Source: a phage. Taken from it: a stretch of 64,000 nucleotides of DNA. Shown piece by piece: positions 1,782 through 40,693 of the stretch. The stretch's first letter is position 1. Every line of letters starts with the position of its first letter. The stretch is taken from NCBI GenBank assembly GCA_019566135.1, contig GCA_019566135.1_3044.1; one strand, written 5' to 3'. The notes under the pieces are model-generated. The model was not told the origin of the DNA. It did no database searches and saw only the letters and a program-made list of their open reading frames with translations. Position numbers and translations under genes: made by a program.

Positions 1782-4046
1782 TCATAATTTACAGGATGAA
1801 CAATCTTCAGCTTTTGGAGTTTCTATTTCATAATCATCAGTACCAGAACCATCACGGGTATTATGATAATAGAAATTTTTTCCGCCAAAATACCAAAAAT
1901 ACAAAAGGTCATCAATCATTATTGACATTGGAACCTTTCCTTTTGGAAAAATCTGTGGGTCATAATATGTATTCGCCGAAGCTGATTGACAAACCCATTT
2001 CAGCATAATAGCTACCTGCGTAAGATAAGGTTTATTACCTTTCTTAGCTAATTTCCATGTATAATCATAGAGGTCTATGTTATGCTCAATATTGGGCACG
2101 ACTTGATTAAAGGAGCCCTCTTTTGATTCTTTAACAGAGACTGGTCCACGTGGAGGCTCGATACCGTTTGTACTGTTAGAAACTTGGGAAGATGACTCAC
2201 ATGGCATAAGTGCTGATAATGTGCTATTACGGATGCCAAAGAGCTTAAGGTCTTCCCGCAGCGACGACCAGTCACAAACGTATTTTGGAGCTGCGATTTG
2301 GTCAATCTTTTTATTGTACCAGTCGATAGGTAATTCGCCTCGAGACCAACGAGTGTCTGAATAATATTCGCAAGGTCCTTTTTCTTTGGCGAGCTTAATG
2401 GATGCTTTAATGAGTCCATACTGTAATCTCTCAAATAGTTCATGTGTTAAATCGTTAGCATCTTCATAAGAAGCAAAGTTACTTGCCAGCCAAGCTGCAT
2501 AGTTAGTAACACCTACACCGAGGTTACGACGCTTTTTAGCTTTTTCTGCTTCAGGAACTGGATATCCTTGGTAATCCAAAAGATTATCAAGAGCACGAAC
2601 TTGGACTTCTGCCAATTCATTAATTTTATCTTGGTCTTGCCAGTCAAAATTATCCAGTACGAATGCAGAGAGAGTACACAATCCAATTTCAGCATCAGGA
2701 CTATTCACATCATTTGTTGGAATAGCAATTTCACAGCACAAGTTACTCTGACGAATAGGTGCCTTTTCACGAATAAACGGAGTATAGTTATTCGTATTAT
2801 CAATGAACTGCACATAAATCCTTGCTGTTCCTGAACGTTCAGTCATGAGCAATTCAAATAGTTCACGGGCTTTAATACGCTTTTTACGAATATTAGGGTC
2901 TTTTTCTGCTGCTTCGTATAATTCACGGAAACGGTCTTGGTCTTTAAAATAAGAATAATACAGCTCTCCACCCATTTCATGTGGACTGAACAAAGTAATG
3001 TAATCGTTCTTTCCGAATCGTTCCATCATCAAATCATTCAGCTGAACGCCATAATCCATATGACGAATGCGGTTTTCTTCTACGCCTTTGTTATTTTTCA
3101 AAACGAGAAGATTTTCAACTTCCAAATGCCAAATAGGATAATAAGCAGTAGCAGCGCCGCCACGAATTCCACCCTGTGAGCATGATTTAACAGCAGTCTG
3201 AAAATGTTTCCAAAAAGGAATAACACCAGTATGGCGTACTTCACCCATGCCAATCTTAGAACCTTCGGCACGAATCATACCAACGTTAATACCAATTCCA
3301 GCACGTTTGGAGATATATTCAACAATTGAAGCGGAAGCCTTATTGATAGACTTTAATGAATCACCTGCCTCAATAACAACGCATGAACTAAACTGTCGAG
3401 TCGGAGTACGGCAACCAGCCATAATAGGAGTTGGCAATGAAATCTGTCGAGTAGATACTGCTTCATAAAAACGAATAACGTGTTTTAATCTATCAACAGG
3501 TTCATCTTGATGCAATGCCATTCCAATAGTCATAAATGCAAACTGTGGAGTTTCATAAATTTGACCGGTGGTTTTATCTTTAACTAGATATTTTTCTTTT
3601 AATTGCATCGCCCCGGAATAAGTAAATTCCATATCCCGCTCGTGCTTAATTTTTGATTCTAAAAATGTAATTTCTTCTGCTGAATATTTTGACAATAATT
3701 CAGGGTCGTATTTACCTTCATTTACGCAATAAGAAATATGGTCAATAAATGAACGTGGTTCATATTGTCCGTAAACATGCTTACGAAGAGCGAACATTAA
3801 ACAACGTGCAGCTACATATTGATAATCAGGCTCTTCAACCGAAATAGAATTCGCAGCAGCCTTAATGACAATAGTCTGAATATCATCAGTTGTCATTCCA
3901 TCACGGAGATAAGATTTAATATTTTCATATAATTCATAAGGATCTACTGATGTTCCTTCAGCTGCCCAAGATAAAACTTTAATAATTTTTTGTGGGTCAA
4001 AGCTCTGAGAAACACCACTACTTTTGATAACATTAATTAATTGCAT
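1782..4046 (-). CDS. nrdA: Ribonucleotide reductase large subunit
   Basis: 754 aa, same length as T4 NrdA; class I RNR motifs; C-terminal CSSCKL. Confidence 0.93.
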   Translation of the reverse strand: MQLINVIKSSGVSQSFDPQKIIKVLSWAAEGTSVDPYELYENIKSYLRDGMTTDDIQTIVIKAAANSISVEEPDYQYVAARCLMFALRKHVYGQYEPRSFIDHISYCVNEGKYDPELLSKYSAEEITFLESKIKHERDMEFTYSGAMQLKEKYLVKDKTTGQIYETPQFAFMTIGMALHQDEPVDRLKHVIRFYEAVSTRQISLPTPIMAGCRTPTRQFSSCVVIEAGDSLKSINKASASIVEYISKRAGIGINVGMIRAEGSKIGMGEVRHTGVIPFWKHFQTAVKSCSQGGIRGGAATAYYPIWHLEVENLLVLKNNKGVEENRIRHMDYGVQLNDLMMERFGKNDYITLFSPHEMGGELYYSYFKDQDRFRELYEAAEKDPNIRKKRIKARELFELLMTERSGTARIYVQFIDNTNNYTPFIREKAPIRQSNLCCEIAIPTNDVNSPDAEIGLCTLSAFVLDNFDWQDQDKINELAEVQVRALDNLLDYQGYPVPEAEKAKKRRNLGVGVTNYAAWLASNFASYEDANDLTHELFERLQYGLIKASIKLAKEKGPCEYYSDTRWSRGELPIDWYNKKIDQIAAPKYVCDWSSLREDLKLFGIRNSTLSALMPCESSSQVSNSTNGIEPPRGPVSVKESKEGSFNQVVPNIEHNIDLYDYTWKLAKKGNKPYLTQVAIMLKWVCQSASANTYYDPQIFPKGKVPMSIMIDDLLYFWYFGGKNFYYHNTRDGSGTDDYEIETPKAEDCSSCKL

Positions 4047-4363
4047 AAGTCCTCAACTTGAAAATCGTCTTTAAACAATCGGTTAACTATATGAGCTATT
4101 ATATCACCATGACACGGCTTTGGTTTACATGTGCATCCTAGCCTCATTCCACGTAAAGGCTCTAAATGTGCTTTAGTTATTTCTCCGGATTTAATTCGAC
4201 GTATAAAATCTTTTTTGAATAATTCAATGGCAGCCTCCCGGCTGCCAGCATCTTTACCGACGTAATTTCCCCAAAATGTACCACGGTGAATATTAACATC
4301 AAAGTCGGATTTATATTTATTCACTACCCGGCATAGACGGCCCGCGCGGTTGTAGGTGTTCAT
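4037..4363 (-). CDS. Hypothetical protein, DUF4326-like (nrdA.1 position)
   Basis: 108 aa; WGNY...[12 protein letters not shown] pattern resembles the DUF4326 family; overlaps neighbours. Confidence 0.55.
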
Positions 4364-4592
4364 ATTGTTCTTCCGTTAAAACAGTAATATCGTAGTAACA
4401 GTCAGAAGAAGTTTTAACTGTGGAAATTTTATTATCAAAATACTCACGAGTCATTTTATGAGTATAGTATTTTTTACCATAAATGGTAATAGGCTGTTCT
4501 GGTCCTGGAACTTCTAACTCGCTTGGGTTAGGAAGTGTAAAAAGAACAACGCCAGAAGTATCTTTAAATCGTAAAATCATACATCCTCGCAA
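4317..4592 (-). CDS. Hypothetical protein (nrdA.2 position)
   Basis: 91-aa ORF between td and nrdA; start uncertain. Confidence 0.45.
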
Positions 4593-36170: not shown

Positions 36171-36439
36171 TATTTAAAACGAATAGTTGAATCCTTAAAG
36201 AACAGCCCAGAACATACTGTTCCTTCTACTTTCTGCCCGGTAGGTCCAATAGCACGAAATCCAGTATGTTGGAAATCATTTTCAGAGCAACCGAACCAGT
36301 TATATCCAGTGATTTCAATATTCGTAAAACCACTTGATGATAAAATTTTAGTTGCATTATCAGCATCAGTACATCCTACTAAAGATACTGCTAATACTAA
36401 TGCTGCGATAGAACGATTAATATATTTCATAATTTTCAC
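36170..36439 (-). CDS. Small lipoprotein (signal peptide plus lipobox LVGC)
   Basis: MKIMKYINRSIAALVLAVSLVGC...; 89 aa. Confidence 0.6.
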   Translation of the reverse strand: MKIMKYINRSIAALVLAVSLVGCTDADNATKILSSSGFTNIEITGYNWFGCSENDFQHTGFRAIGPTGQKVEGTVCSGLFFKDSTIRFK

Positions 36440-36807
36440 TTAAATTTAATAGCTTGAAGAAGACTAATAATTCTCAAGCGACTTCTTTCATCTTTAACTG
36501 TAAAGGAAAGAGGGTCGCCAGATTTCATGGTAATAGTGCATTCAAAATCAAAATCTTCTGTGACTTCTTCGAAGAAGTCAAATTCTTCAGCATAAATTAG
36601 AACATTACTCTGAAAACTGTGAAGAATTTTTCCGTTATTTCCAGACGCTGTACTAATCATCGTAACATTATGACCTTTCATATCTTCAACGATAAATTCG
36701 CTTGTAGATATTACAGCATTAATAGAACCATTCCTATAAATAGCAGACATTAGATATTTCTTTTCTTCGCCTTCGCGAATACGATATTTCTTACCGATTT
36801 TAAACAT
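36436..36807 (-). CDS. Hypothetical protein (123 aa), coupled to the lipoprotein gene
   Basis: ATGA overlap with the downstream lipoprotein ORF. Confidence 0.5.
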   Translation of the reverse strand: MFKIGKKYRIREGEEKKYLMSAIYRNGSINAVISTSEFIVEDMKGHNVTMISTASGNNGKILHSFQSNVLIYAEEFDFFEEVTEDFDFECTITMKSGDPLSFTVKDERSRLRIISLLQAIKFK

Positions 36808-36988: not shown

Positions 36989-37414
36989 TTATTCCTTAAA
37001 GTGTGCTTTCAGCATTTGATACAAGGACCATGCCTGTTCATTATTTTCAATAGTAACTTTCATGACAGGAAATTCTGTGAAATCTTCTATTTGTTCTTGC
37101 TCTTTCTCTTCCTGCTCTTGCTCTTCAGCTGCCTGATATGGATTTTCCACTTCATCAAAGAACTCGGCTTCGTTAGTAGAGAGCCAGATAAAGTTTTCGT
37201 CAAGGATATCACCATGTGTTGCATATCCAATTGTGCCAGTAAATGACATAATTTTAGTAGGACGACCAAGATGGTCAACATCTAAAATTTTAAAAGGATG
37301 CATACCTAAACGTCGTGCATAAATTCCGTTATCAGTATGGTCTTTAATAAAAGCTTCTTGAGCTTGTTTATTTTTAAATTGATACCATTTATTAACTTCA
37401 AATCTAATAGCCAT
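36989..37414 (-). CDS. goF: GoF-like protein (141 aa from ATG 37414)
   Basis: Size and position match T4 goF; ATG overlaps the cef stop (TAATG). Confidence 0.55.
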
Positions 37415-37629
37415 TAATAAATTTCCTTCCAATAAGTTGTACCATCTTCAGTAATTTCGCGAAATACACCGTAAATTGGTTGTTTATCACCAACCTTTTC
37501 ATACACATAAACCGAAGTCAAGTGAGTAAACTTAACGGTATGTTCTTTTTGAACTACTACCAAATCTGGATCGAATAATACATCTTCAAATTCGTCATTA
37601 GTGCAATTCTGAACAATTTTACGTTTCAT
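37414..37629 (-). CDS. cef: Cef-like protein (71 aa)
   Basis: 71 aa as T4 Cef; position after goF. Confidence 0.55.
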
Positions 37630-37642
37630 TACAATTTCCTCA

Positions 37643-37924
37643 TTAATTGAACAGTGGAGCGATGCGTTTCAGAAGAGTAGCAGCACCTTTAGCGAATTTT
37701 ACATCATGAAAAACAGTTTCTTCTTCTGTAACAACTCGAACTTTAATATTTTCACAATCCCAATTTTTACGAACAATCTTCAAAAGCTGCAGTAAATCTT
37801 TACATTCAGCAATATCGATAACACATCCACGAGAATCTTCCATTATCGCACGATAACCGTAAGCCATACCATAATCATTGAAAGATTGCTCGATGATAAT
37901 TAAGTTTTCCATTTTATTCTCCAA
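37643..37924 (-). CDS. Hypothetical protein (93 aa)
   Basis: ORF with ATG; promoter-like region upstream. Confidence 0.5.
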   Translation of the reverse strand: MENKMENLIIIEQSFNDYGMAYGYRAIMEDSRGCVIDIAECKDLLQLLKIVRKNWDCENIKVRVVTEEETVFHDVKFAKGAATLLKRIAPLFN

Positions 37925-37936
37925 GTTGTTTTCTGT

Positions 37937-37979
37937 ATCAGTAGTTGATATTGATATAGTACCATAATCAACTACTGAT
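37937..37979 (-). promoter_or_regulatory. Promoter-like element with -10 TACTAT inside a 13-bp perfect inverted repeat (ATCAGTAGTTGAT, 17 nt, ATCAACTACTGAT)
   Basis: Arms at 37937-37949 and 37967-37979; the usual GTTTAC -35 is replaced by one arm. Confidence 0.45.
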
Positions 37980-38019: not shown

Positions 38020-38439
38020 TTATGCTAAAGCTGCTTCGCACCATTTTTTAATTTGGAATTCAGGAACTACCATGAACTGGCCTGCAAAAACAATATTGTA
38101 GAGCTTGACACCATCTTCTACCCAACGGTCCGAAATAAAACCAGCGACTTGATTCGTTGTCCATGGAGTTCCATCTGTTGCCGCCGCAATTGTGAATTTA
38201 TGGTCTTTTACAACTAAAACTGAAGAACAAAGTTTCCATTTAAATGCGCTTTCTTCTGGCTCAATGAACTGACTTGAGACATAACCAATGTTACCATCAG
38301 CGTCACGAACTTTAACCTCGTTACGACCAAAAACTGGATCACTTACAGAAAGAACTTCAACCAGCTTTCCTGCAACTTTAGAACGAGAAGCAACGGATAC
38401 ATATACGTAATCACCAGTAGAGAGATTTGCAATATTCAT
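38020..38439 (-). CDS. MotB-like protein, paralog A (139 aa)
   Basis: N-terminal KOW-like GDYVYVSVASRSKVAGKLVEV; C-terminal WVEDGVKLYNIVFAGQF shared with B and C. Confidence 0.5.
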   Translation of the reverse strand: MNIANLSTGDYVYVSVASRSKVAGKLVEVLSVSDPVFGRNEVKVRDADGNIGYVSSQFIEPEESAFKWKLCSSVLVVKDHKFTIAAATDGTPWTTNQVAGFISDRWVEDGVKLYNIVFAGQFMVVPEFQIKKWCEAALA

Positions 38440-38448
38440 AATAATTCC

Positions 38449-38922
38449 TTAAGCTTTACGAGGAGAAGCATAACGAGTGATTTCAGATTCTTCAACAACC
38501 CGGAAGTCACCTAAGAATACGATATTGTAGAGCTTTTCACCATCTTCAACCCATTGGTCTGTGATGAAGCCACACATCCTATCAGTTTTACTTGGACCAG
38601 CGAAATCATCAATATAATCGAATTCTTCATCAGTTACAAATTCAACGCCTTTACACAACGCCCATTTAAATTGTGTATTAGACTCAGTGGATTCAACTTC
38701 TTCAACAGAAGCAAAATGAGAGCTAACACGAGTTTCCAGAAATTTAGGACTTACGTAAGCGTACTGAGTTTCAGTTTTTCCAGAACCAGGAATGATTCGA
38801 ACTTTAACTTCTTTAACACGACCAGTACCATTAGTACGAAGTCCTACCACTTCAACTAGACGACCTGCAGCTTTAGAACGAGATGCAGACGATACACGCT
38901 TAATTTCACCGATAGTAATCAT
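38449..38922 (-). CDS. MotB-like protein, paralog B (157 aa from ATG 38922)
   Basis: SASRSKAAGRLVEV and QWVEDGEKLYNIVFLGDF; ATG 38922 downstream of the early promoter. Confidence 0.5.
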   Translation of the reverse strand: MITIGEIKRVSSASRSKAAGRLVEVVGLRTNGTGRVKEVKVRIIPGSGKTETQYAYVSPKFLETRVSSHFASVEEVESTESNTQFKWALCKGVEFVTDEEFDYIDDFAGPSKTDRMCGFITDQWVEDGEKLYNIVFLGDFRVVEESEITRYASPRKA

Positions 38923-38965
38923 AATTTTTCTCTCTTTGTTGTTAAGATTTATACTCCGCAGGACC

Positions 38966-38995
38966 ATTATACTCTGGTCCCAAGAGTTTGTAAAC
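38966..38995 (-). promoter_or_regulatory. Early promoter (-35 GTTTAC 38995..38990, -10 TATAAT 38971..38966)
   Basis: 18-nt spacer; the TATAAT sits inside a GGACCA/TGGTCC inverted repeat. Confidence 0.55.
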
Positions 38996-39432
38996 TAGCT
39001 TACACGAACATTAATCACTGCGCTGCGAGGAACTACAGAGTACTCTCCAGCATGAACTACGTTCAGAAGTTCAACACCATCTTCAATCCACTGATCAGTC
39101 ACCCATCCACCCACAGGATTCGCGAATGGACGACGAATATAAACTGCCTTACACAGCAGATCAGTTGGATCTTCAGGTTTTTCAATTTCTGTCAATAGAC
39201 TAAAATCTTTTTCATAAATAATAAGCGGTGATACCATTCCATAATAGTTTCTAATTTCAATATACATCATACCGATAAGAATTCCGCTATTAACACTAAT
39301 AACAGTAAAAGGATATCCGCCAGTTAAACCAAGAAGTTCACAAAACTTATTATGAGCTGTATTAGACAGTACCGAAAAATTCTTAATTTCATCAAATTTT
39401 TTCAATTGATAAACAGCATTATTTTTAATCAT
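38995..39432 (-). CDS. Protein sharing the MotB-like C-terminal domain, paralog C (145 aa)
   Basis: C-terminal GWVTDQWIEDGVELLNVVHAGEYSVVP; unrelated N-terminus. Confidence 0.5.
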   Translation of the reverse strand: MIKNNAVYQLKKFDEIKNFSVLSNTAHNKFCELLGLTGGYPFTVISVNSGILIGMMYIEIRNYYGMVSPLIIYEKDFSLLTEIEKPEDPTDLLCKAVYIRRPFANPVGGWVTDQWIEDGVELLNVVHAGEYSVVPRSAVINVRVS

Positions 39433-39442
39433 AATTTTCTCT

Positions 39443-39946
39443 TTAATCTAAGGTAATAAAGCCTTTTAATTCGGCATGTGACTTGCGGAACATTACTTGA
39501 TGCCCACCAATGATAACTTTATCTTCAGGTACTTCGTATACAGCGAGATAAAATCCTTTAGAAGCTAATTCTTCACGCTCTTCTCGTGTGAACCATCTCA
39601 TCATATCATATTCACTAGCAAAAGCAAAATGATAAAGAGCTATAAACCATCCTGGAATATAGTGATCTACGCCTACATATTCTTCTTTCTCAAAATTAGT
39701 ATTAATTGCTATATTAGCATTTTTAACTAATAGTTTGTCTTCGTGCGGAAGAGGAATTCTTTTATTATCATTACTATGATGCATAAAATTAGGTCTGTCA
39801 TAACCTACGTGTAATAACCACTCTTCGCTCCATGAATCCATTATACTCCTGTACGGCGTTATTTGAACACAAAGATCTCGACGTATTGTTATAGCATCTT
39901 CATAATTAAGAATACTAAATGATGATTCAACACGATAAATTTTCAT
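39443..39946 (-). CDS. Hypothetical protein (167 aa from ATG 39946)
   Basis: GAGGA SD before ATG 39946. Confidence 0.5.
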   Translation of the reverse strand: MKIYRVESSFSILNYEDAITIRRDLCVQITPYRSIMDSWSEEWLLHVGYDRPNFMHHSNDNKRIPLPHEDKLLVKNANIAINTNFEKEEYVGVDHYIPGWFIALYHFAFASEYDMMRWFTREEREELASKGFYLAVYEVPEDKVIIGGHQVMFRKSHAELKGFITLD

Positions 39947-40009
39947 TTTATTATCCTCAGTAGCTATGGTGTTATAATACCACAACTAACCGAGGAAGTA
40001 AACAACTTT

Positions 40010-40693
40010 TTATCGTTTTGTTGGAAGAGTCAGAGGATCGCAATCTTCCTCTGACGGAGCATCTTCAAGACCCATAGCGTATCGCAAAGCATACTTCATC
40101 ATCAGGATGTCTTTCGCACAGTCATGAATAGAATCATGTGCAACGAATCCATCTAAAGTTCCCTTTGGAAGAGGACACGTGGTCATATCACGAACAAGCA
40201 GAAGTGCTTCAATTCTGGTACGAATATCACGCTGATTCCAGAATTTACATGGTTCTAACTTAAATGTATCAAGCTCATTCTCGGAAACGCCATTAAGACG
40301 TTGAATATCGCGAATGAGATCGACTAAAATTGGAAAATCAAACGACATTCCACGGCACCAGCCTTGAGATTTCCAAGGATCGATATTATGTGCATTGATG
40401 TAATCGTTGAATTTTGCAATACCATCAATGGTGCTTACATCTTCATCGGATGGTGCAATATTTTTTCGAGCTTCAGGAGACTGATTTTTCCACCATTCGA
40501 TAGTGCTTTTAGTAAAAAGACGATGTCCTTTTTGGCTTTTTAAATCAAATTTGATTTTAATGCCACGTGAAACTAGTTCATCGAATGATTCAACTACTTC
40601 TGGGTTAGGGTCAAAAGCAATTACAGCCAAATCAATAACAGCTGCTTTTTCACCGCTTCCCATTGTTTCAAAATCTATAATAAAATCAAACAT
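40010..40693 (-). CDS. dexA: Exonuclease A (DnaQ-like 3'-5' exonuclease)
   Basis: 227 aa (same as T4 DexA); N-terminal DFETMG exonuclease motif. Confidence 0.85.
   Translation of the reverse strand: MFDFIIDFETMGSGEKAAVIDLAVIAFDPNPEVVESFDELVSRGIKIKFDLKSQKGHRLFTKSTIEWWKNQSPEARKNIAPSDEDVSTIDGIAKFNDYINAHNIDPWKSQGWCRGMSFDFPILVDLIRDIQRLNGVSENELDTFKLEPCKFWNQRDIRTRIEALLLVRDMTTCPLPKGTLDGFVAHDSIHDCAKDILMMKYALRYAMGLEDAPSEEDCDPLTLPTKR

What the first reader, a model, noticed from the sequence alone, without database searches (positions are those of the whole stretch)
38020..39432. Three adjacent genes share one C-terminal domain while their N-terminal halves differ
Three adjacent ORFs share a roughly 40-aa C-terminal block (WVEDGVKLYNIVFAGQF / QWVEDGEKLYNIVFLGDF / QWIEDGVELLNVVHAGEY). 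Two of them also share a KOW-like N-terminal block (SRSK(V/A)AG(K/R)LVEV); the third has an unrelated N-terminus. They sit where T4 has motB and its flanking ORFs. The pattern suggests a family diversified by duplication and N-terminal module exchange, possibly DNA- or RNA-binding proteins with different specificities.
Basis: partly seen in the sequence, partly recalled or inferred. Interest (0 to 1): 0.55.

Follow-up and report, generated by a model that had tools for sequence, protein, structure and literature searches.

The report
T4-type phage MotB gene family
The three adjacent genes are motB.1, motB and a second motB copy of a T4-like phage; their shared C-terminal domain with different N-terminal domains is real but was already published in 2021, so the finding is correct but ordinary.

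Summary
On the minus strand, 38995-39432 (145 aa), 38449-38967 (172-aa ORF; likely true start 38922, 157 aa) and 38020-38439 (139 aa) share a C-terminal block. BLASTP E-values are 2e-28, 5e-13 and 3e-10, and all three score above the Pfam PF17613 'motB' threshold. The window is an RB3/GiZh-like Tequatrovirus. Gene order is dexA, motB.2, motB.1, motB, MotB-like paralog, orf93, cef, goF, so the location guess was right. T4 lacks the 139-aa paralog and orf93; RB69 and roughly a quarter of MotB-bearing phage records have the paralog. This architecture is already published: Patterson-West 2021 described the shared C-terminal domain, the different N-terminal domains and two motB copies in RB69, and Kim 2025 described the LSm-like N-terminus of MotB.1. 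New here: all three genes are under purifying selection (dN/dS 0.09-0.31). AlphaFold2 models show SH3-like small barrels in both halves, with Tudor/KOW structural hits and no OB-fold hit. Distant relatives carry a true Pfam KOW motif next to the MotB C-terminal domain. A natural motB/paralog hybrid shows recombination within the shared blocks. The window's MotB is acidic, whereas T4's is basic. In passing: the 119-aa MotB.1 of the T4 reference comes from one extra G that is absent from 13 other T4-group records. Function (DNA binding, H-NS remodelling) is inferred from T4 MotB only.

The parts
38995..39432 (-). motB.1 (145 aa): an LSm-like/GoF-like N-terminal barrel plus a MotB-type C-terminal domain without the hairpin insertion
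   Evidence: It is 78% identical to T4 MotB.1. phrog_2333 scores E 9e-68 and Pfam PF17613 scores 32.7 bits on residues 104-139. The AF2 model has pLDDT 85.4. dN/dS is 0.24-0.31.
38449..38922 (-). motB (157 aa from the ATG at 38922; the mechanical ORF runs to 38967): a KOW-like N-terminal barrel, an acidic linker and a C-terminal domain
   Evidence: Pfam PF17613 scores 141 bits. It is 85% identical to RB69 MotB and 46% to T4 MotB. The AF2 model has pLDDT 84.5. dN/dS is 0.15-0.25. The start was chosen from the promoter and SD position.
38020..38439 (-). Second MotB paralog (139 aa, 'MotB-like protein'): a KOW-like N-terminus joined almost directly to the C-terminal domain. It is absent from T4.
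   Evidence: Pfam PF17613 scores 71.6 bits and phrog_1671 scores E 1e-50. It is 99% identical to the RB68 'MotB-like' protein and equivalent to RB69p010. It is 44-47% identical to every other MotB subtype. dN/dS is 0.09-0.16. An AAGGA Shine-Dalgarno sequence lies 7 nt upstream, and only 9 nt separate it from motB.
38998..39165 (-). Shared C-terminal domain coding segment in motB.1
   Evidence: Alignment A4, with invariant F, D, W, E, G, L, N, V, G and V columns. The model predicts four strands, a 3-10 turn and a last strand.
38452..38670 (-). Shared C-terminal domain coding segment in motB
   Evidence: Alignment A4 and strands 92-151 of the model.
38023..38244 (-). Shared C-terminal domain coding segment in the paralog
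   Evidence: Alignment A4 and DNA repeats D1 and D2.
38966..38994 (-). Early-type promoter-like site (TTTACA-N17-TATAAT) between motB.1 and motB, overlapped by a GGGACC/GGTCC hairpin
   Evidence: It matches 11 of 12 consensus positions. It fits the TTTACW-N17-TAYWAT promoter of T4-group PeSL cassettes (PMC4122927). The same element is conserved in T4. This is a consensus match only.
39974..40002 (-). Promoter-like site upstream of motB.2 and motB.1
   Evidence: TTTACT-N17-TATTAT with an upstream TG. motB.2 and motB.1 are 10 nt apart. This is a consensus match only.
37937..37979 (.). Stem-loop just downstream of the paralog and upstream of orf93
   Evidence: An inverted repeat of 20 nt at 85% complementarity with a 3-nt loop, seen in the sequence.
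36436..36807 (-). Context: orf123, a nearby gene whose N-terminal half is related to the MotB.1-type N-terminal module
   Evidence: hhalign of the MotB.1 N-terminal profile against orf123 gives probability 93.6% and E 2e-7 over 77 columns. There is a weak Pfam FRD2 hit (E 0.021, below threshold).

Best explanation
These are three paralogous early genes of the T4-type phage MotB family (Pfam PF17613): motB.1, motB and a second, deeply diverged motB copy. Each encodes a small protein made of two beta-barrels. The C-terminal barrel defines the family and carries the core G-[FWY]-[IV]-[ST]-D-Q-W-[IV]-E-D-G-x-x-L-[YL]-N-[IV]-V. The N-terminal barrel is interchangeable: KOW-like in motB and its copy, GoF/Frd.2-like (LSm-like) in motB.1. 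The family grew by tandem duplication and by recombination within and between the shared coding blocks, in a hyperplastic early region. The following steps are inferred from T4 MotB and not shown for these proteins. The genes are expressed early. The basic KOW-like barrel of MotB binds nucleic acid non-specifically. MotB reshapes H-NS/StpA-DNA complexes to favour infection. The conserved C-terminal barrel supplies a common second contact (a partner protein, self-association or nucleic acid). The paralog and MotB.1 do related but non-identical jobs. I put about 0.95 on family identity and architecture, about 0.45 on H-NS/nucleoid remodelling for this MotB, and about 0.25 on the same activity for the other two.
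For: Family identity: Pfam motB is above threshold for all three ORFs. PHROG 'MotB-like' families hit them. Gene order is syntenic with T4 and RB69. The locus is 98-99% identical at DNA level to REP1, GiZh and RB3, where the genes are annotated motB or MotB-like.
Real genes: dN/dS is 0.09-0.31, with a constant 139-aa length across more than 25 protein clusters.
Domain census: three N-terminal classes sit on one C-terminal domain. KOW N-termini also occur with MotB.1-type C-termini. A Pfam KOW motif above threshold occurs together with the PF17613 C-terminal domain in P0277 and P0287.
Recombination: the shared DNA blocks are 71-79% identical. The Kelasse hybrid is joined inside the SRSK-AG block. 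Chimeric clusters P0034, P0036 and P0104 exist.
Function of the prototype: T4 MotB binds DNA non-specifically, copurifies with H-NS and StpA, doubles burst size, alters H-NS footprints and up-regulates H-NS-regulon genes (PMC6070864; PMC7827196).
Charge: the N-terminal barrel is basic in both T4 MotB (+5) and this MotB (+8).
Against: Function is extrapolated from a protein only 46% identical to this MotB and 37% identical to the paralog. T4 MotB is basic (pI 9.2), but this MotB, the paralog and MotB.1 are all acidic overall (pI about 5.4). The paralog's N-terminal barrel has net charge -1, so non-specific DNA binding may not be conserved. A T4 motB.1 deletion has no burst-size phenotype, and MotB.1 had no effect in an RNA reporter assay (PMC12152347), although that construct probably lacked most of the C-terminal domain. 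Promoters are consensus matches only. Which domain binds DNA has never been tested.
Confidence: 0.8

Rival explanations
1. The shared C-terminal domain is the nucleic-acid-binding part: an OB-fold of the cold-shock type, as proposed from HHpred. The three proteins would then all be DNA binders, and their N-termini would only modulate partners.
For: Patterson-West 2021 reported HHpred matches of the MotB C-terminal domain to the eIF5A C-terminal OB-fold. The C-terminal domain is the most conserved part of the family.
Confidence: 0.2
2. The proteins act on RNA or on transcription and translation machinery rather than on the nucleoid. KOW and LSm-like barrels are typical of NusG/Spt5, ribosomal proteins and Hfq, so the family could modulate RNA polymerase, Rho or mRNA stability.
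For: The gene name reflects an old report of altered middle transcription. Structural neighbours include NusG, RfaH and Spt5 KOW domains, eL27 and EF-P domain I. The MotB.1 N-terminus belongs with GoF and Frd.2, and the GoF(D25Y) mutant stabilises an mRNA (PMC12152347). The neighbouring genes cef and goF act on RNA.
Against: A T4 motB knock-down leaves the early and middle transcriptome unchanged (PMC6070864 abstract). Wild-type GoF and MotB.1 had no effect in the reporter assay. T4 MotB copurifies with DNA and with H-NS and StpA.
Confidence: 0.2
3. The 139-aa gene is a redundant or decaying duplicate of motB with no function of its own.
For: T4 and most Tequatroviruses do without it. Kelasse has fused it with motB.
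Against: dN/dS is 0.09-0.16 at dS of about 0.5-0.7. Its length is fixed at 139 aa over many clusters. It is 44-47% identical to all MotB subtypes, so it is an old lineage. It occurs next to both RB69-type and T4-type MotB. It has its own Shine-Dalgarno sequence. Its compact architecture (no linker, shorter N-terminal hairpin) and its charge differ from MotB.
Confidence: 0.05

Closest known systems
T4 MotB (gene motB, Pfam PF17613; Patterson-West et al. 2018, 2021)
   Same: Same family and same locus between dexA and cef. It has the same two-domain layout: a KOW-like N-terminus with SRSKAAG(K/R)LVEV, a linker and a C-terminal domain with the DQWVEDGxKLYN core. An early-type promoter sits immediately upstream.
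   Different: It is only 46% identical to this MotB. The window's MotB is of the RB69/Mosigvirus subtype (85% identical to RB69 MotB) and is acidic (pI 5.4), whereas T4 MotB has pI 9.2. The biochemistry was done on the T4 protein only.
T4 MotB.1 (Category 2 of Patterson-West 2021; LSm-like family of Kim et al. 2025)
   Same: The window's 145-aa protein is its orthologue (78% identity) and has the same GoF/Frd.2-like N-terminal barrel.
   Different: The T4 reference protein is 119 aa because of one extra G inside the C-terminal domain coding region. The window protein, like other T4 records (143 aa), has the complete C-terminal domain.
RB69p010 / RB68 'MotB-like protein' (second motB copy noted in RB69 by Patterson-West 2021)
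   Same: The window's 139-aa gene is this protein (99% identical to the RB68 entry) and sits directly downstream of motB, as in RB69 and other Mosigviruses.
   Different: Here it lies in a Tequatrovirus backbone and is followed by orf93 rather than motB.2. No function has been reported for it.
KOW / Tudor / SH3-like small beta-barrels (NusG C-terminal domain, Spt5 KOW, 53BP1 tandem Tudor, EF-P domain I)
   Different: There is no significant sequence similarity for the window proteins (Pfam KOW not hit; the PDB profile search gives E >= 0.004). The C-terminal barrel is a phage-specific sequence family, with only 36 clusters among 1.84 billion representatives.

Membership tests
MotB family (Pfam PF17613) | Score above the Pfam gathering threshold (25 bits) | tested here: met
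   The scores are 141, 71.6 and 32.7 bits for the 172-, 139- and 145-aa ORFs.
MotB family (Pfam PF17613) | Conserved C-terminal core G-[FWY]-[IV]-[ST]-D-x-W-[IV]-E-[DEN]-G-x-x-L-[YL]-N-[IV]-V ... G-x-[FY]-x-V | tested here: met
   The core is present in all three ORFs. Ten columns are invariant across 27 diverse C-terminal domains.
MotB family (Pfam PF17613) | Position in the dexA-cef early region of Tevenvirinae | tested here: met
   The order dexA, motB.2, motB.1, motB, paralog, orf93, cef, goF matches the T4 and RB69 annotations.
MotB family (Pfam PF17613) | Non-specific DNA binding, copurification with H-NS/StpA, toxicity in E. coli (properties of T4 MotB) | not testable with these tools
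   These properties are known only for T4 MotB (PMC6070864, PMC7827196). The charge differences advise caution.
KOW motif proteins (Pfam PF00467) | Match to the KOW motif HMM in the N-terminal block | tested here: not met
   There is no KOW hit at E <= 1 for the window proteins. Distant relatives with the same C-terminal domain do pass (P0277 24.8 bits and P0287 22.9 bits against 22.3), and 4 of 22 N-terminal domains hit KOW. Homology is therefore plausible through intermediates.
KOW motif proteins (Pfam PF00467) | SH3-like five-stranded barrel resembling NusG/Spt5 KOW domains | tested here: met
GoF / Frd.2 / MotB.1 LSm-like family (Kim et al. 2025) | N-terminal domain orthologous to the T4 MotB.1 N-terminal domain, with a bent five-stranded sheet | tested here: met
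   It is 78% identical to T4 MotB.1. The model has strands 7-10, 42-49, 55-61, 67-73 and 80-83 with an inserted helix at 24-37.
GoF / Frd.2 / MotB.1 LSm-like family (Kim et al. 2025) | Detectable relationship to GoF or Frd.2 | tested here: inconclusive
   The profile against the window's GoF aligns in register over 81 columns but is not significant (probability 0.6%). The profile against the window's orf123 is significant (probability 93.6%, E 2e-7), and orf123 weakly hits Pfam FRD2 (E 0.021).
OB-fold, cold-shock DNA-binding type (proposed for the MotB C-terminal domain) | Five-stranded OB barrel with a helix between strands 3 and 4, and structural neighbours that are OB-folds | tested here: inconclusive

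The most novel reading that the evidence does not exclude
The MotB family is a set of tandem SH3-like (Tudor/KOW-like) barrel proteins. The near-invariant C-terminal barrel is not an OB-fold DNA binder but a common docking or self-association module, for example for H-NS/StpA or another host factor. The interchangeable N-terminal barrels (basic KOW-like, neutral KOW-like, LSm-like) direct that module to different nucleic acids. The lack of phenotype reported for MotB.1 would then partly reflect use of the frameshifted 119-aa reference allele, which lacks most of this module.
Probability: 0.2. Interest if true: 0.45.

Novelty: already known. Interest (0 to 1): 0.2.

Why it matters
MotB is one of the few T4 early host-takeover proteins linked to the host nucleoid protein H-NS, so its paralogs are natural candidates for anti-silencing or nucleoid-remodelling factors. 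The finding itself adds nothing to the published picture. The follow-up gives practical pointers for people working on the family. First, the full-length MotB.1 is 143-145 aa, not 119 aa. Second, the C-terminal domain looks SH3-like rather than OB-like. Third, RB69/RB3-type MotB and the 139-aa paralog differ strongly in charge from T4 MotB, so T4 biochemistry may not transfer. Fourth, natural hybrids and deletions (Kelasse, CrRp10) offer ready-made genetic variants.

Tried and rejected
1. I tested whether T4 MotB is a hybrid of a MotB N-terminus and a paralog-type C-terminus, which would explain why T4 has one gene. Segment-wise identities show no such switch, so I rejected the idea.
2. I tested whether the N- and C-terminal barrels of MotB are an internal duplication. 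hhalign gives probability 0.9%, so there is no support at sequence level.
3. I tested whether the KOW-like and MotB.1-type N-termini are distant homologues. hhalign gives probability 0.5%, so there is no support.
4. I looked for a solved structure of any family member. phmmer and profile searches of PDB sequences gave only marginal SH3, uL24 and eS28 hits for the N-terminus and nothing for the C-terminal domain.
5. I looked for the C-terminal domain outside T4-like phages. A profile search of 1.84 billion representatives gave 36 hits. The only non-family hits are long, tail-fibre-like proteins with a repeated GYATEQWVxDKxYLT motif that matches 20-25 profile positions several times. I judged this a short-motif resemblance, not a domain match.
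6. I looked for a fourth copy of either module elsewhere in the window. None was found.

Full report
**What is there**

The region holds three consecutive minus-strand ORFs:

| Coordinates | Length | Identity |
|---|---|---|
| 38995-39432 | 145 aa | motB.1 |
| 38449-38967 | 172 aa as a mechanical ORF | motB |
| 38020-38439 | 139 aa | second MotB-like paralog |

A 2.6-kb stretch around them is 98-99% identical to Escherichia phages REP1, JLBYU31, GiZh and the RB3/RB5/RB6/RB27 group, so the window comes from a T4-like Tequatrovirus. Family scans and comparison with the T4 annotation give this gene order in the direction of transcription:

- dexA.2, dexA.1, dexA (40010-40693)
- motB.2 (39443-39985)
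- motB.1
- motB
- a second MotB-like gene
- orf93 (37643-37924)
- cef (37414-37629)
- goF

T4 has dexA, motB.2, motB.1, motB, then a 170-bp gap and cef. It therefore lacks the 139-aa gene and orf93.

**Is the similarity real?**

Yes.

- **Protein level.** BLASTP gives 2e-28 (motB vs paralog, 41% over 152 residues), 5e-13 (motB.1 vs motB) and 3e-10 (motB.1 vs paralog, 53% over 32 residues).
- **Against the whole window.** Each C-terminal segment finds only the three copies (E 2e-8 to 1e-17), and the next hits have E >= 0.8. The KOW-like N-terminal block finds only motB and the paralog.
- **DNA level.** A 39-nt block occurs in all three genes (72-74% identical). A 93-nt block (71%) and a 48-nt block (79%) are shared by motB and the paralog.
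- **Pfam.** All three ORFs exceed the gathering threshold of PF17613 'motB'.
- **Extent of the shared domain.** MotB-type proteins carry a 17-20-residue insertion that MotB.1-type proteins lack.

**Gene starts and signals**

Directly after the motB.1 stop lies TTTACA-N17-TATAAT (38994-38966), which matches 11 of 12 consensus positions. The first ATG of the 172-aa ORF (38967) overlaps the 3' end of its -10 box. The ATG at 38922 follows AAAGAGAGAAAAATT and aligns with the T4 MotB start (MIINIGE vs MITIGE). MotB is therefore most likely 157 aa.

The same promoter and hairpin are conserved in T4. They fit the TTTACW-N17-TAYWAT promoter of the PeSL cassettes, which are described as recombination-prone regulatory modules in T4-type hyperplastic regions (PMC4122927).

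The paralog starts 9 nt after the motB stop and has an AAGGA Shine-Dalgarno sequence. A 20-nt-arm hairpin (37937-37979) follows it. All promoter statements rest on consensus matches only.

**What is already known**

- **Patterson-West et al. 2021 (PMC7827196).** They aligned 102 phage homologues. They described MotB proteins (KOW-like N-terminal domain plus C-terminal domain) and two further categories that keep the C-terminal domain but have other N-terminal domains. [quoted passage not shown] They suggested duplication, and noted that RB69 has two motB copies, one motB.1 and a 29-aa peptide.
- **Patterson-West et al. 2018 (PMC6070864).** They showed that T4 MotB binds modified and unmodified DNA non-specifically, copurifies with H-NS and StpA, is toxic in E. 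coli and doubles burst size. The 2021 paper added altered H-NS footprints and up-regulation of H-NS-regulon genes.

Only these two papers in the searchable library mention MotB.1.

**What the follow-up adds**

1. **Distribution.** A 38-aa C-terminal query finds 779 phage records and 1676 places (mean 2.15 per record). About 208 records carry a C-terminal domain at least 80% identical to the paralog's, so roughly a quarter have the extra copy.
   - Mosigviruses have dexA, motB.1 (164 aa), motB, paralog, motB.2.
   - CrRp10 has a T4-type MotB plus the paralog, but no motB.1 or motB.2.
   - Kelasse has motB.1 plus a single hybrid whose first 17 residues come from motB and whose remainder comes from the paralog, joined inside the SRSK-AG block.
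   - Chimeric clusters (P0034, P0036, P0104) and a motB.2/motB.1 fusion peptide (P0281) tell the same story.
2. **Age and selection.** MotB-type proteins fall into four main subtypes (T4, RB69/window, Dhaka/JS98, 139-aa paralog) that are 44-54% identical to one another, so the paralog is an old lineage. dN/dS is 0.09-0.16 for the paralog, 0.15-0.25 for motB and 0.24-0.31 for motB.1. All three are maintained by selection.
3. **Architecture census.** Among 263 cluster representatives, the N-terminal regions form three BLAST classes: KOW-like (143), a 180-250-aa class (87) and the MotB.1 class (30). The last two align with each other as the same GoF-like module. Some 250-aa proteins contain two such modules.
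   - A profile search of 1.84 billion representatives finds only 36 clusters.
   - These include proteins with a KOW-like N-terminus joined to a MotB.1-type C-terminal domain.
   - They also include proteins whose N-terminus passes Pfam KOW and whose C-terminus passes or approaches PF17613 (P0277, P0287, P0289).
   - This links the SRSKxAG block to true KOW motifs through intermediates, although Pfam KOW does not hit the window proteins directly.
4. **Fold.** The AlphaFold2 models (MotB pLDDT 84.5, MotB.1 pLDDT 85.4) show two barrels. They are joined in MotB by a disordered acidic linker (residues 66-81, pLDDT below 50). Each half has four strands, a 3-10 turn and a last strand.
   - No OB-fold protein appears in the top 60. 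This leans against the published HHpred assignment of the C-terminal domain to the cold-shock OB-fold.
   - The tool gives no aligned ranges and no C-terminal-only model could be made, so I rate this point as inconclusive.
5. **Charge.** T4 MotB is basic (pI 9.2, net +6). This MotB is acidic overall (pI 5.4), with a +8 N-terminal barrel, a -4 linker and a -7 C-terminal domain. The paralog has pI 5.4 with a -1 N-terminal barrel. MotB.1 has pI 5.35. If DNA binding is conserved, the N-terminal barrel of MotB is the likelier site. The paralog may have lost non-specific binding.
6. **Source of the MotB.1 module.** The MotB.1 N-terminal profile matches orf123 (36436-36807), two genes beyond goF, with hhalign probability 93.6%. 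The match to GoF itself is in register but not significant.

**Mechanism**

- **Shown.** Family membership, domain layout, purifying selection and recombination between the paralogs.
- **Inferred from T4 MotB.** Early expression, nucleic-acid binding and remodelling of H-NS/StpA-DNA complexes.

My working model is that the conserved C-terminal barrel provides a common contact and the variable N-terminal barrels provide different nucleic-acid or partner preferences. I give this about 0.2-0.45, depending on the step. The rivals are in the report sections: the C-terminal domain as an OB-type DNA binder, a role on RNA or the transcription machinery, and a decaying duplicate. The last of these is disfavoured by the selection data.

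**A by-product worth recording**

The T4 reference (AF158101.6 / NC_000866.4) encodes a 119-aa MotB.1 that ends ...GGWVTDQWIGRWR. Relative to the window it has one extra G (TGGATTGGAAGATGG). The remaining 29 residues of the domain (LEDGVELLNVVHAGEYSVVPRSAVVAILN) lie in another frame.

All 13 other T4, T4T, RB55 and RB59 records are one base shorter over the same 278 bp. MT984581.1 and HM137666.1 annotate a 143-aa MotB.1 with the complete domain. The RB69 reference has two frame changes in the same segment, and its annotated 29-aa ORF RB69p012 is the C-terminal remnant. Other Mosigviruses have an intact 164-aa gene.

Neither Hinton-lab paper mentions a frameshift. The MotB.1 expression constructs were made by gene synthesis, the reported protein size is 13.8 kDa, and NC_000866.4 is the only T4 reference cited in the methods. 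The assayed protein therefore probably lacked most of the shared domain. That last step is my inference.

**Verdict**

The feature is real and correctly interpreted, but it belongs to a described family with a published domain analysis and database models. Novelty is 'already known' and interest is low (0.2).

Noticed in passing
L001 (T4 NC_000866.4) 2143-2651; compare window 38995-39140: The T4 reference motB.1 (119 aa, UniProt P39415) is cut short by a single extra G inside the conserved C-terminal domain motif. Thirteen other T4-group records lack the G and encode a 143-aa protein with the full domain. Published MotB.1 constructs (13.8 kDa, gene synthesis; NC_000866.4 is the only T4 reference cited in the methods) probably lacked most of the shared domain.
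   Followed up: yes
L002 (RB69 NC_004928.1) 3877-4373: The RB69 reference motB.1 shows two frame changes in the C-terminal domain coding part. The annotated 29-aa ORF RB69p012, which is the 'Category 3' peptide of Patterson-West 2021, is just the C-terminal remnant. Other Mosigviruses have an intact 164-aa gene.
   Followed up: partly
L009 (Kelasse MW749001.1) 1483-1935; L010 (CrRp10) 1711-2635: Kelasse has one hybrid gene (motB 5' end joined to the paralog inside the SRSK-AG block) instead of two genes. CrRp10 pairs a T4-type MotB with the 139-aa paralog and lacks motB.1 and motB.2. These are natural recombinants and deletions within the cluster.
   Followed up: yes
window 36436-36807 (-): orf123, downstream of the 39.2-like zinc-ribbon gene, is related to the MotB.1-type N-terminal module (hhalign probability 93.6%, E 2e-7) and weakly to Pfam FRD2. 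It is probably another member of the GoF/Frd.2/MotB.1 LSm-like family. T4 has an unrelated 65-aa gene 39.1 in the equivalent position.
   Followed up: partly
window 37643-37924 (-) and 37937-37979: orf93 (phrog_3720, no Pfam hit; likely start is the ATG at 37912) and a 20-nt-arm hairpin with a promoter-like sequence upstream of it lie between the paralog and cef. T4 has only a 170-bp gap there.
   Followed up: no
window 38449-38922 vs L001 1654-2142: The window's MotB is acidic (pI 5.4; N-terminal domain +8, linker -4, C-terminal domain -7), whereas T4 MotB is basic (pI 9.2). The flanking genes are 78-97% identical to T4, but MotB is only 46% identical, so the motB allele has been replaced by an RB69-like one.
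   Followed up: partly
relatives P0110, P0131, P0133, P0134, P0136, P0225, P0270, P0272 and others (not in the window): Many family members carry a conserved short linker motif, roughly [IFV]-D-x-D-[IVL]-[AV]-[SC]-x-Y-...-P-[LIV], between the N-terminal module and the C-terminal domain, or ahead of the N-terminal module. The window's three proteins lack it. Its role is unknown.
   Followed up: no
P0279, P0280, P0284-P0290 (600-920 aa): Long, apparently tail-fibre-like proteins contain 4-7 repeats of GYATEQWVxDKxYLTxHQSL that match 20-25 positions of the MotB C-terminal profile (GYITDQWVEDGxKLYN). This is probably a short-motif resemblance rather than homology.
   Followed up: no
window 39443-39985 (-): The motB.2 ORF as listed starts at a TTG 13 codons upstream of the ATG that matches the T4 MotB.2 start (MKIYRVESS...). 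The true start is probably at 39946.
   Followed up: no
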